This document shows, one piece after another, positions 5,782-11,801 of a stretch of 13,987 bases of DNA (positions are counted from its first letter, which is position 1; each line of letters begins with the position of its first letter). The stretch lies in the NCBI GenBank assembly GCA_027001995.1, contig JALTLO010000047.1, positions 1 to 13,987 of the forward strand, given 5' to 3'. This DNA is from Planctomycetota bacterium (GTDB lineage Bacteria; Planctomycetota; GCA-002687715; DRQF01). Position numbers and translations under genes: made by a program. The notes below the pieces were generated by a model. That model was given only the letters and a program-made list of their open reading frames with translations. It was not told where the DNA came from and made no database searches.

Positions 5782-5854
5782 TGGCCGGGGCCAGATTTGA
5801 ACTGGCGACACCCGCATTTTCAATGCGATGCTCTACCAACTGAGCTACCCGGCC
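5782..5854 (-). tRNA. tRNA-Phe (GAA), CCA not encoded
   Basis: GGCCGGGTAGCTCAGTTGGTAGAGCATCGCATTGAAAATGCGGGTGTCGCCAGTTCAAATCTGGCCCCGGCCA: acceptor GGCCGGG/CCCGGCC, D arm GCTC/GAGC, anticodon loop TT-GAA-AA, T arm GCCAG-TTCAAAT-CTGGC; 73 nt. Confidence 0.97.
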
Positions 5855-9469: not shown

Positions 9470-9925
9470 GTGCAGACAGACTTCAGAGAGTTGTTAGCAT
9501 TGCTTACCCAGAACAACGTGGACTATCTCATCGTGGGAGGGTACGCTCTCGCATTCCACGGCGCTCCTAGATTCACAGGGGACATTGCTCTTCTGGTCCG
9601 CCCCACCAAGGAAAATGCTCAACAGGTTATGGCCTCTCTCTTAGAATTCGGATTTGGCTCCATTGGGCTCACAGAATCCGACTTCACCAAACACGATCAC
9701 ATCGTTCAGCTCGGCAAGCCCCCGGTCAGGATCGACATCATGACTTCCATCTCTGGTCTCTCATGGGAAGAAGCGGTCGAGAACCAAGTCGGAGGAACCT
9801 ATGGTGATGTGTCGGTCAACTTTATTGGACGACAGGATTTTATCGCCAACAAGAGAGCGAGTGGCCGTTTGAAGGACTTGGCAGACATCGAAGCACTTGG
9901 CGAATCTCCAAGCAACGAAAACTAA
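9470..9925 (+). CDS. Small Pol-beta-superfamily nucleotidyltransferase (DUF6036/AbiEii-like), possibly a pseudogene
   Basis: DFRELL...YLIVGGYALAFHGAPRFTGDIA...PPVRIDIMTSISG...FIANKRASGRLKDLADIEAL. The expected RxTxDxD reads RFTGDIA, and the GTG start has no SD. Confidence 0.85.
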   Translation: MQTDFRELLALLTQNNVDYLIVGGYALAFHGAPRFTGDIALLVRPTKENAQQVMASLLEFGFGSIGLTESDFTKHDHIVQLGKPPVRIDIMTSISGLSWEEAVENQVGGTYGDVSVNFIGRQDFIANKRASGRLKDLADIEALGESPSNEN

Positions 9926-9999
9926 ATCATGGTGAGCCACTTGCGCCCGAATACGAGCTGCGAACCTTCTCCAAAGACCTAAGCCAATAATTCACGACA

Positions 10000-10092
10000 C
10001 TCGCGGGTACACACCGTGCGTTTCCCTTCGTTCCCTGCGGTCAGGTTACGGGAGGACTTGCACCTCCAAGTCGGCAGTCATGCCGGGCACAC
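10000..10092 (-). mobile_element. Group IIC intron 5' fragment (start of domain I), truncated; no RT ORF or domains V/VI
   Basis: Minus strand GTGTGCCCGGCATGACTGCCGACTTGGAGGTGCAAGTCCTCCCGTAACCTGACCGCAGGGAACGAAGGGAAACGCACGGTGTGTACCCGCGAG. It has a GUGYG start, the first 14 nt match the Oceanobacillus iheyensis IIC intron start as I recall it, and it contains the GGAGG-TGCAAGT-CCTCC T-loop-type hairpin. It begins immediately after a terminator U-tract. The 3' boundary is approximate. Confidence 0.85.
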
Positions 10093-10125
10093 CAAAGAAA
10101 AGGGCGACCCCCAAAAGGGTCGCCC
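10093..10125 (-). terminator. Rho-independent terminator of the prenyltransferase-repeat gene (intron target site)
   Basis: Minus strand GGGCGACCC-TTTTGG-GGGTCGCCC-TTTTCTTTG: perfect 9-bp stem plus U-tract, 32 nt after the stop. Confidence 0.9.
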
Positions 10126-10157: not shown

Positions 10158-11693
10158 CTACTTGCCGGTACCAAACACACGGCCATAGCGATAGTAAACT
10201 TCAAGACAGAGGGTCATCAAGGCCGTGGAGTAAACACGTCCACCTGTCTCACCCCAGGCTCCCTTAGGATCCCATGATCCGGAGAAGTTTCCATCAGCCC
10301 GCTGACGTTCGATAATGGCTTCGTTCATCGCCTCATTCCAGCTCTTCCAAGCCTCGCCACCAACTTGGAACATGGCCAAAGTGCCATAGTACCAGTAGTA
10401 CATGTCGATCGAGCCTTTCGCTTGATCCCACACAGGCAATTTCTTGGACAAGAGGTTTTCAACACCAAGCTTAATCATGCGCTCTTGTGCTGGATCTTGG
10501 CCGCAGAAAACACGGCAGCAGATACCAACAGCCGTCAAGGACTCAGACTCTTCCCCAGGGAATTCGTCTTTCTTGTTTGGCTCACGGACGGGAGGTTCGC
10601 CAGCGCGGATGTAACCAGTACGGCCGCTTTCCTCGTCAGTCATCTCCACGATCCAATCCAATGCCCAGCCAAAGCGACGCTCATCCAAGGAGATGTGGGC
10701 TGTCTTGGCTGACTTTAGAGCCATGACCATCCAGCCAGTCACAGAAGTATCATTCTGACCATCTGCTTCTTTGTAGCGCCAAGCCTTGTAAGGGTTTTGG
10801 CATTGTTGGACATAAGCAATGCCCTTTTCAGCACAACTCTTAAACAGCGGACTCTTGGTCAAACTGAAAGCCTCTGCCATGGCCAGGGCACCGATAGCAT
10901 GGTTATAGGTGAAGTTGGCAACGGTCTTTGAACCGAAACAGCCTTCGCCCCCTTGCTGGTCCCGGAGCCATTTGAGGCCCTTGGCAACAGTTGTCTTATA
11001 TTGGCCGTTACGGTGAGTTTCGCCAGCTCCCAAGAAGCAGAGCAAAGCCAAGCCAGTAACACCGACATCCCATTGTGGAGCACCTTTGCCATCAGCCAAT
11101 GGACCCTTTTGGGAATCGCCATTGTCCATGAAACCATCGCTATCCCAGCGTCCGTCTGGAGACTGATGCAATGCCAACCATTCCAAACCGCGGTCAACCG
11201 CAGCTTGAGCTTTGCGGCCACGACCACGACGTGCGCGCTTACGGCCACCACGGCGTCCACCGAAGCTACCGCCAGCACCACCACCCAGTCCGATGGCATC
11301 GTTGTTGCTCTTGGAATCCATCTTGTCCGAGATGAAGTCTTCTTCGCCAACGGTCTCTTCGTAATCTTCGTTGGTGTCGTCTTCGTCGTGGTCGTCAACT
11401 TCTTCGTCGACTTCGACCGGATCTTCCACCAATTCTTCTGGTTCAGGCTCTTCCTCGGGAGGTTCTTCTTCGATGATTTCCTCTTCCTCAGGAATCTCCT
11501 CCTCCATTTCCATCTTCGCTTGCTCAGGCTCGGGTTCCTCTTCAGGACCGCTCATGAAAAGCATCAAAATAATAACCACAATCGCGTGAACGGCTGCGGA
11601 GATCAAGAGCCACGGCGTCCGACTCAACTGTTCAACGAGGACGTCGTTAAAACTCTCCCCTTCAAACTGTTGGCGGTACATTTCGTAGGACAT
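10158..11693 (-). CDS. Membrane-anchored prenyltransferase/squalene-cyclase repeat (alpha/alpha toroid) protein
   Basis: AAGGAG SD 6 nt before ATG 11693 (GTG 11696 is an alternative). One TM helix, an acidic Glu/Pro linker and a Gly/Arg patch, then QW-like repeats: LEWLALHQSPDGRW, LKWLRDQQGGEGCF, YVQQCQNPYKAW, IERQRADGNFSGSW, plus DTSVTGW, YYWYYGT and GGRVYSTAL..LCLEVYYRY. Confidence 0.9.
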   Translation of the reverse strand: MSYEMYRQQFEGESFNDVLVEQLSRTPWLLISAAVHAIVVIILMLFMSGPEEEPEPEQAKMEMEEEIPEEEEIIEEEPPEEEPEPEELVEDPVEVDEEVDDHDEDDTNEDYEETVGEEDFISDKMDSKSNNDAIGLGGGAGGSFGGRRGGRKRARRGRGRKAQAAVDRGLEWLALHQSPDGRWDSDGFMDNGDSQKGPLADGKGAPQWDVGVTGLALLCFLGAGETHRNGQYKTTVAKGLKWLRDQQGGEGCFGSKTVANFTYNHAIGALAMAEAFSLTKSPLFKSCAEKGIAYVQQCQNPYKAWRYKEADGQNDTSVTGWMVMALKSAKTAHISLDERRFGWALDWIVEMTDEESGRTGYIRAGEPPVREPNKKDEFPGEESESLTAVGICCRVFCGQDPAQERMIKLGVENLLSKKLPVWDQAKGSIDMYYWYYGTLAMFQVGGEAWKSWNEAMNEAIIERQRADGNFSGSWDPKGAWGETGGRVYSTALMTLCLEVYYRYGRVFGTGK

Positions 11694-11801
11694 CACCCAC
11701 TCCTTTGGTCAACTGTCAGCTCAGAATCAGAGCTAACTCAAGTCAGAGGCTTGCTTTATGGCAGCAAGCCCTTGTTCGAAACTCGTCTCGGCAAAAAAAT
11801 G

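What the first reader, a model, noticed from the sequence alone, without database searches (positions are those of the whole stretch)
10000..10125. Group IIC intron 5' remnant inserted precisely behind an intrinsic terminator
Seen: on the minus strand a perfect terminator hairpin and U-tract (…GGGTCGCCC-TTTTCTTTG) runs directly into GTGTGCCCGGCATG…GGAGGTGCAAGTCCTCC…GAACGAAGGGAAACGCA. Known: group II introns begin GUGYG, and class IIC introns target sites just downstream of Rho-independent terminator stems using a short IBS1 (here TTTG). Inference: this is the footprint of a retromobility event. Intron-like sequence stops after about 93 nt, and no RT/maturase, catalytic domain V or 3' end is visible. 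It may be a decayed scar or one copy of a dispersed family of non-autonomous terminator-associated elements. ORF-based annotation would miss it.
Basis: partly seen in the sequence, partly recalled or inferred. Interest (0 to 1): 0.72.

Follow-up and report, generated by a model that had tools for sequence, protein, structure and literature searches.

The report
Broken stub of a terminator-seeking intron
This is the first 100 bases of a mobile self-splicing intron that once landed right behind a gene's stop signal for transcription and later lost the other 95% of itself, an ordinary genomic fossil with a few worn siblings in the same genome.

Summary
Confirmed, and ordinary. On the minus strand a terminator hairpin (10125-10102) and a 9-nt T-rich tail are followed at 10092 by the 5' end of a class C (IIC) group II intron. 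The stub runs 100 nt (10092-9993), not 93. It is 91% identical to the 5' end of an intron that carries a complete reverse-transcriptase gene, and that protein is closest to GsI-IIC among solved structures. The stub keeps two small hairpins and half-helices of domain I. It lacks the exon-binding loop, the protein, domain V and the 3' end, so it cannot splice or move. Three more copies lie behind other terminators of this genome. They stop at different points, one is internally deleted, and as a group remnants break base pairs that RT-bearing introns keep. This fits insertion followed by deletion, not a non-autonomous mobile family. Loss of the 3' part of bacterial group II introns is described in print (PMC5894124, PMC4181065). 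Left open: this copy's first 67 nt carry no private change, and a longer related copy may be in the same samples.

The parts
10102..10125 (-). Intrinsic terminator hairpin of the upstream gene; the structure that a IIC intron targets
   Evidence: a hairpin at the same place behind the orthologous gene in 7 of 7 relatives printed
10093..10101 (-). T-rich tail and spacer; last 4 nt (10096-10093, TTTG) are the positional IBS1
   Evidence: same last four bases before 3 of the 4 genome copies; pairing partner absent from the stub
9993..10092 (-). IIC intron 5' stub, intron nt 1-100
   Evidence: (91% to L020, 88% to L021)
10078..10092 (-). Class C 5' boundary motif; fits 14 of 15 positions of the published consensus, and the 15th base is shared with L020 and L021
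   Evidence: PMC4028801 passage
10068..10090 (-). 5' strands of the basal helices of domain I (nt 3-25); their partners lie at about nt 243-274 and are missing
10051..10067 (-). First small hairpin (nt 26-42; IA in the usual naming, label recalled); all 5 pairs kept in this copy
10029..10050 (-). Second small hairpin (nt 43-64; IB, label recalled); all 7 pairs kept in this copy
9993..10021 (-). 5' arm and tip of the third subdomain (nt 72-100; IC, label recalled); ends just before the conserved AGGAA motif; holds this copy's private changes
   Evidence: AGGAA motif per PMC1702495
9926..9992 (.). 67 nt of unassigned DNA; no intron piece found in it
9470..9925 (+). 151-aa gene like DUF6036 / AbiEii-type nucleotidyltransferases, converging on the stub; not seen at this site in the relatives printed
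   Evidence: (score 0.97; families on 16-62% of cluster members); no Pfam hit
10158..11696 (-). 512-aa gene with a squalene-hopene cyclase C-terminal-like domain, whose terminator was the target

Best explanation
It is an inert scar. Step 1 (inferred from the known IIC pathway): an intact intron of about 1.85 kb, close to L020/L021, recognised the terminator hairpin and the four bases after it in single-stranded DNA, reverse-spliced in at 10093/10092 and was copied into DNA by its own reverse transcriptase. Step 2 (shown: the loss; inferred: its cause): one or more later deletions removed everything past nt 100, that is the rest of domain I with the exon-binding loop, domains II-VI and the protein gene. 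The nucleotidyltransferase gene now next to it may have arrived in the same or a later rearrangement. An aborted copy is unlikely, because reverse transcription starts at the intron's 3' end and an abort would keep that end (established knowledge). The 5' tip tends to survive because a deletion that runs past it would cut into the terminator (inference). Step 3 (shown for the set of remnants, not for this copy's first 67 nt): what is left drifts. It has no catalytic part and cannot be mobilised in trans.
For: 91% identity over nt 1-100 to an RT-bearing intron whose protein passes TIGR04416 and is closest to GsI-IIC RT. All 4 long matches in the genome sit 5-9 nt behind a hairpin. End points differ: C47 100, C178 83-91, C25 15; C23 keeps nt 1-66 and then about nt 150-217, an internal deletion (0, 1 and 0 of 100 shuffles as high against three introns); G001 129. 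No domain V near any copy. Six remnants break 8 of 72 pair cells in the two hairpins, eight RT-bearing introns 1 of 96 (Fisher p 0.005; sequences are related, so this overstates). The stub region folds no better than shuffles (z -0.46). No stub of 10 nt or more at the orthologous terminator in 7 of 7 relatives printed. A contig of another study carries the same stub with a few different letters (X2, depth 3.8). Loss of the 3' part is the described fate of bacterial group II introns (PMC5894124, PMC4496777, PMC4181065; passages).
Against: This copy keeps all 12 pairs of the two hairpins and has no private change in nt 1-67; its changes against L020 and the sister copy C178 cluster at nt 68, 72, 77 and 82. 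That is a post-hoc pattern on four changes, but drift alone does not predict it. No exact empty allele was found, so the original 3' flank and the deletion end are not known. No excess of 5'-only over 3'-only remnants was seen in the phylum sample (4 of 23 places against 9 of 30), so the 'terminator protects the 5' tip' step has no support beyond this family.
Confidence: 0.88

Rival explanations
1. The stub is one copy of a short non-autonomous element that is still spread behind terminators by the protein of an intact IIC intron.
For: Four copies in the genome, all behind terminators; several remnants end near nt 81-100; a longer related contig exists in the same samples.
Against: No shared end point; no domain V, no 3' end and no exon-binding loop in this copy, all needed for reverse splicing (established knowledge; PMC10190682 passages); only 2 of 40 relatives carry an intron-derived match (a third match covers the terminator only).
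Confidence: 0.03
2. The stub was kept because it now does something in cis, for example steadying termination between two converging genes or plugging the site against a new insertion.
For: nt 1-67 are unchanged and both hairpins are intact; the stub is at the same site in a contig from a second study and, as a weak hint, 24 nt of it in a more distant relative (X2 and X4; the X4 piece is under the tool's 31-letter bridging rule). Such a role has been proposed for other intron remnants (PMC4181065, passages).
Against: Sister remnants break the same hairpins; seven relatives do without it; the X2 contig differs at several letters within nt 68-86; a plasmid locus has one IIC intron directly in front of another intron's 5' end (L019), which suggests such a 5' end need not block insertion.
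Confidence: 0.06
3. The intron is complete in the living genome and the stub is an assembly collapse at a repeat.
For: The genome is a 204-contig, 92% complete assembly, and 8 of 23 phylum matches are cut by contig ends.
Against: The stub lies mid-contig, and one Logan contig spans 9408-10900 with no difference (X1; possibly the source sample, so not independent); no RT or domain V of this lineage in the assembly.
Confidence: 0.02

Closest known systems
Bacterial class C (IIC) group II introns, such as B.h.I1 (PMC1702495), the E.r. intron (PMC10190682) and GsI-IIC (PDB 6AR1)
   Same: 5' boundary motif, position a few bases behind a terminator hairpin, domain I sub-hairpins; the closest relatives carry a class C-like RT.
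   Different: Only nt 1-100 of about 1,850 remain; no exon-binding loop, no AGGAA motif, no protein, no domain V or VI.
Two RT-bearing IIC introns from metagenome contigs, L020 and L021
   Same: 91% and 88% identical over nt 1-100; both also sit behind a hairpin.
   Different: They continue through domain I, a 460-461 aa RT and domain V; L021 has its 3' end, L020's contig stops a few bases short of it.
3'-truncated intron remnants such as FRE652 of Sinorhizobium (PMC4181065, PMC5894124)
   Same: 5' part kept, 3' part and protein lost, intergenic, persists across strains.
   Different: FRE652 is 652 nt, derives from an RmInt1-like intron and keeps domains I-III with its exon-binding sites; this stub is 100 nt, class C, and keeps none.

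Membership tests
Class C (IIC) group II intron, by descent | 5' boundary consensus GUNYGCCNRGCAUGG | tested here: met
   14 of 15 positions; the 15th is shared with L020 and L021
Class C (IIC) group II intron, by descent | Homology to the 5' end of an intron with a class C-type RT | tested here: met
   class assigned by best PDB match and the CGC triad in L020/L021 domain V (PMC1702495), no tree built
Class C (IIC) group II intron, by descent | Inserted a few bases behind a terminator-like hairpin | tested here: met
   9 nt behind the hairpin
Class C (IIC) group II intron, by descent | IBS1-EBS1 pairing of 3-4 bases | tested here: inconclusive
   The loop is absent from this copy. In L021 the loop pairs fully with its own exon end. 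The worn loop left in C23 would pair with 3 of the 4 bases of TTTG, one as a wobble, and does not fit C23's own exon end
Functional IIC retroelement | Complete domain I with AGGAA motif and exon-binding loops | tested here: not met
   ends at nt 100, before the motif
Functional IIC retroelement | Domain V with CGC triad, domain VI and 3' boundary | tested here: not met
Functional IIC retroelement | Intron-encoded RT/maturase | tested here: not met
   tblastn finds only an unrelated 34%-identical tail on C40
Non-autonomous (ORF-less or miniature) mobile intron | Both ends and catalytic core kept | tested here: not met
Non-autonomous (ORF-less or miniature) mobile intron | Several copies of the same length | tested here: not met
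   100, 83-91, 66 plus internal piece, 15 nt
Domesticated regulatory RNA | Structure kept with compensatory change across hosts | tested here: not met
   remnants 88.9% paired, 64 of 500 shuffles as high; RT-bearing introns 99.0%, 0 of 500; this copy alone keeps all 12 pairs
Domesticated regulatory RNA | Expressed as a discrete RNA | not testable with these tools
   no RNA holder listed

The most novel reading that the evidence does not exclude
Terminators act as a ratchet that preserves the tips of past IIC insertions: deletions eat the intron from the far side but cannot cross the terminator, leaving a graded series of stubs (100, about 85, 15, possibly 10, 9, 8 and 7 nt here and in relatives). 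The few bases behind terminators would then be a readable census of old intron invasions, and the proximal two hairpins may in some cases be kept for a cis role. Support is thin: a 10-nt match on C38, a 9-nt match on C1, 8- and 7-nt matches at the orthologous site in G002 and G007, and GTGTG in 6 of 206 terminator tails against 123 of 33,896 controls, two of the six being known stubs.
Probability: 0.15. Interest if true: 0.5.

Novelty: new member of a known kind. Interest (0 to 1): 0.2.

Why it matters
Little on its own. It records that this lineage was invaded at least four times behind terminators by a IIC intron that is no longer intact in the assembly, and that neither ORF annotation nor Rfam sees such stubs, so counts of intron fragments built on the protein or on hits of 100 bp or more (the cut-off in PMC3522654) miss most of them. 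It would matter more if a census showed that terminator tails keep a systematic record of past invasions.

Tried and rejected
Rfam match for the stub: none to a group II family at E up to 1. Exact-pattern scans of genome contigs: 0 hits twice (the own genome and near ones may be left out). Intact parent in the assembly: no RF00029 hit; the 4 RT hits do not match the L020 protein by tblastn at E 0.01 and were not studied further; the C40 maturase tail is 34-37% identical to L020's, so another lineage. The idea that nt 72-90 is a fused piece of domain V and the 3' end: rejected, the stretch aligns base for base with nt 72-100 of L020. Further intron pieces in the 300 nt after the stub: none; the one hit at 1 of 100 shuffles lies inside the neighbouring gene and is not found with the two closer introns. 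A 22-of-23 match across the stub's end on contig C3 (E 0.086): context is not intron-like, treated as chance. A shared truncation point: rejected. A general excess of 5' over 3' remnants: not seen (4 of 23 against 9 of 30 places; the probes differ in reach, only 2 candidates per genome were scored, and 15 of the 45 3' places were not opened). Ultra-short stubs as a genome-wide class: inconclusive. Exact empty allele: not found; relatives are too diverged between the genes. Expression: no RNA holder listed. Earlier scan notes near this place, by sequence and in relatives: nothing. Strand bias relative to replication could not be tested in a fragmented assembly.

Full report
Observation. The window is contig C47 of a 5.2-Mb, 204-contig genome. 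On the minus strand the 512-aa gene at 11696-10158 (weak squalene-hopene cyclase C-terminal match) is followed by a hairpin at 10125-10102, a 9-nt T-rich tail and, from 10092, the intron-like stretch. Rfam gives no group II match in the window at E up to 1. This is explained by model coverage: in close intact relatives the first group II model begins at about intron nt 82.

What it is homologous to. A distant BLAST of the stub found 57 plasmid records. I opened 6 of the 20 listed. Three have an annotated ltrA gene about 380 nt downstream, one has an unannotated RT, one is a gutted copy with domain V and one is a 5' piece. A pattern scan of metagenome contigs gave two much closer relatives, L020 and L021. 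Each has a hairpin, the same 5' end, domain I matches, a 460-461 aa protein and domain V. Both proteins pass the TIGR04416 cut-off, and L020's is closest to GsI-IIC RT among solved structures (E 1e-136). Against L020 the window matches at 91% over nt 1-100, window 10092-9993, and then diverges just before the AGGAA motif that PMC1702495 names as typical of IIC introns. The first 15 nt fit the class C consensus given in PMC4028801 at 14 positions.

Anatomy. A consensus fold of eight RT-bearing introns places nt 3-25 in helices whose partners lie at about nt 243-274, two local hairpins at nt 26-42 and 43-64, and a third subdomain from nt 72 to 113. The stub therefore holds two complete small hairpins, several half-helices and the tip of the third subdomain. 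It is not a self-contained fold (z -0.46). No other intron piece lies in the next 300 nt. After 67 unassigned bases comes the end of a converging 151-aa gene that resembles DUF6036 / AbiEii-type nucleotidyltransferases (no Pfam hit).

Other copies. The genome holds four matches to the 14-nt 5' motif. All four lie 5-9 nt behind a hairpin with a T-rich tail, against a background of 0.0012; 1 of 204 shorter matches does. C47 and C178 follow a gene in the sense direction and C25 follows the RNase P RNA gene; for C23 the upstream gene is unclear. Their ends differ: 100, 83-91 and 15 nt, while C23 keeps nt 1-66 and then about nt 150-217. There is also a likely internal piece on C119 (E 5e-4) and a 3' remnant of another lineage on C40. 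The assembly has no RF00029 hit and no RT of this lineage; it is 92% complete, so absence is not proven. Among 40 relatives, 2 have intron-derived matches. G001's runs to nt 129; G006's C70 copy appears to join nt 1-81 to a domain VI-like piece (1 and 2 of 100 shuffles).

Empty sites. All 8 other family genomes have the upstream gene. I printed the downstream DNA for 7 of them: each has a hairpin, none has a stub of 10 nt or more, and in G001, G003, G006 and G007 the next gene is rpsT with no room for, or no sign of, the nucleotidyltransferase gene. G002 and G007 have 8- and 7-nt matches to the intron's start at the expected place, which may be chance or worn tips. The five RNase P loci printed lack the 15-nt stub. 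Spacers are too diverged to give an exact pre-insertion allele.

Populations. Seven runs were listed and four laid. One contig of X1, possibly the source sample, spans both junctions without a difference. A contig of X2, another study, bridges the 5' junction and differs at a few letters in nt 68-86 (depth 3.8, so errors are possible). A more distant X4 contig reaches 24 nt into the intron at this site, which is below the tool's bridging rule, and X4's copy of the nucleotidyltransferase gene has other flanks on both sides. X1 and X3 each hold a further contig that matches nt 1-100 with 14 differences and runs on; its depth (8.9 and 3.2) is near that of the window's own contigs (10.1 and 2.3-2.9). 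It is not among the assembly's copies and its continuation was not shown.

Decay. In the two local hairpins six remnants break 8 of 72 pair cells and eight RT-bearing introns 1 of 96 (Fisher p 0.005, overstated because the sequences are related). Against this, the window's copy keeps all 12 pairs. Of its 9 differences from L020, three in nt 1-67 are natural variants (one shared with L021, two a compensatory pair), and the other six lie in nt 68-96. I have no explanation for that clustering; it rests on few changes and on an unknown parent.

Is there a 5' bias? In 400 other phylum genomes a 5' probe gave 23 places outside G000: 8 followed by an RT, 8 cut by a contig end, 3 gutted with a 3' piece, 4 5'-only. 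A 3' probe gave 45 places, of which 30 were opened: 10 with an RT, 8 cut by a contig end, 3 gutted, 9 3'-only. No general 5' excess is shown; the probes are not equal in reach and only 2 candidates per genome were scored. A test for ultra-short tips behind 206 terminator-like sites of G000 was inconclusive.

How it works. Shown: descent from a IIC intron, the site behind a terminator, and loss of every catalytic and coding part. From the literature: IIC introns recognise a DNA stem, a spacer, IBS1 and IBS3, lack an endonuclease and use lagging strands as primers (PMC10190682, passages). Inferred: full insertion, then deletion. An aborted copy would keep the 3' end (own knowledge of the pathway), and the gutted sister C23 shows that deletion after insertion happens here. 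The stub most likely does nothing.

What is known. Most bacterial group II intron copies are truncated (PMC4028801, passages). Loss of the 3' end is described as a general route of inactivation (PMC5894124, PMC4496777, passages), and 5' fragments that persist are reported, with a proposed but unproven cis role (PMC4181065, passages). PMC3522654 (passages) counts fragments of a class C intron and discards hits under 100 bp. Of PMC1702495 I read the abstract, introduction and start of methods. Robart 2007 and Dai and Zimmerly 2002 I saw only as citations. Four searches showed no paper devoted to IIC stubs of 100 nt or less; the library lacks most subscription papers and I opened no supplements, which may list such fragments. 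Earlier scan notes on gutted IIC remnants in other genomes reach the same kind of verdict; they are unchecked and are not used as support.

Verdict. Real, correctly read, a new instance of a known kind of fossil. Interest 0.2.

Noticed in passing
G000:C25:5777-5791 (L013): A 15-nt IIC stub directly behind the terminator of the RNase P RNA gene; absent at the same site in five relatives.
   Followed up: yes
G000:C23:39592-39470 (L012): Internally deleted sister copy: nt 1-66 joined to about nt 150-217, keeping a worn exon-binding loop.
   Followed up: yes
G000:C40:6180-6660 (L001): 3' remnant of a different IIC intron: broken maturase tail plus worn domains V-VI below the Rfam cut-off.
   Followed up: partly
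G000:C119:989-1057: Likely internal domain I piece (about intron nt 183-252) with no 5' end nearby.
   Followed up: partly
G000:C38 (minus strand, from 1856) and G000:C1 (near 3170): 10-nt and 9-nt matches to the intron's start right behind terminator hairpins; possible ultra-short stubs.
   Followed up: partly
window 9470-9925: DUF6036 / AbiEii-like nucleotidyltransferase gene between rpsT and the stub, single copy in the genome, in another context in a relative's contig; no partner gene seen.
   Followed up: partly
runs X1 and X3 (records 3 and 19): A contig not in the assembly that matches intron nt 1-100 at about 86% and runs on; depth close to this organism's.
   Followed up: no
G000, terminator tails: The word TATGG occurs in 10 of 206 terminator-like tails against 187 of 33,896 control T-runs; unexplained.
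   Followed up: no
G000:C92 (L003, L004), C11 (L002), C84 (L005): Four reverse-transcriptase-like frames, two of them adjacent on C92, that do not match the group II protein; type not determined.
   Followed up: no
L019:2501-4664: Two IIC introns in tandem on a Polaromonas plasmid, the second starting at the base after the first one's 3' end.
   Followed up: partly
L015:2510-2720: A gutted IIC copy of about 210 nt with both ends on a Sulfuricystis plasmid.
   Followed up: partly
G001:C538:3866-4284 (L032): The orthologous spacer holds two copies of a palindromic repeat instead of the stub and gene.
   Followed up: no
window 5782-5854: tRNA gene on the minus strand with a GAA anticodon loop.
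   Followed up: no
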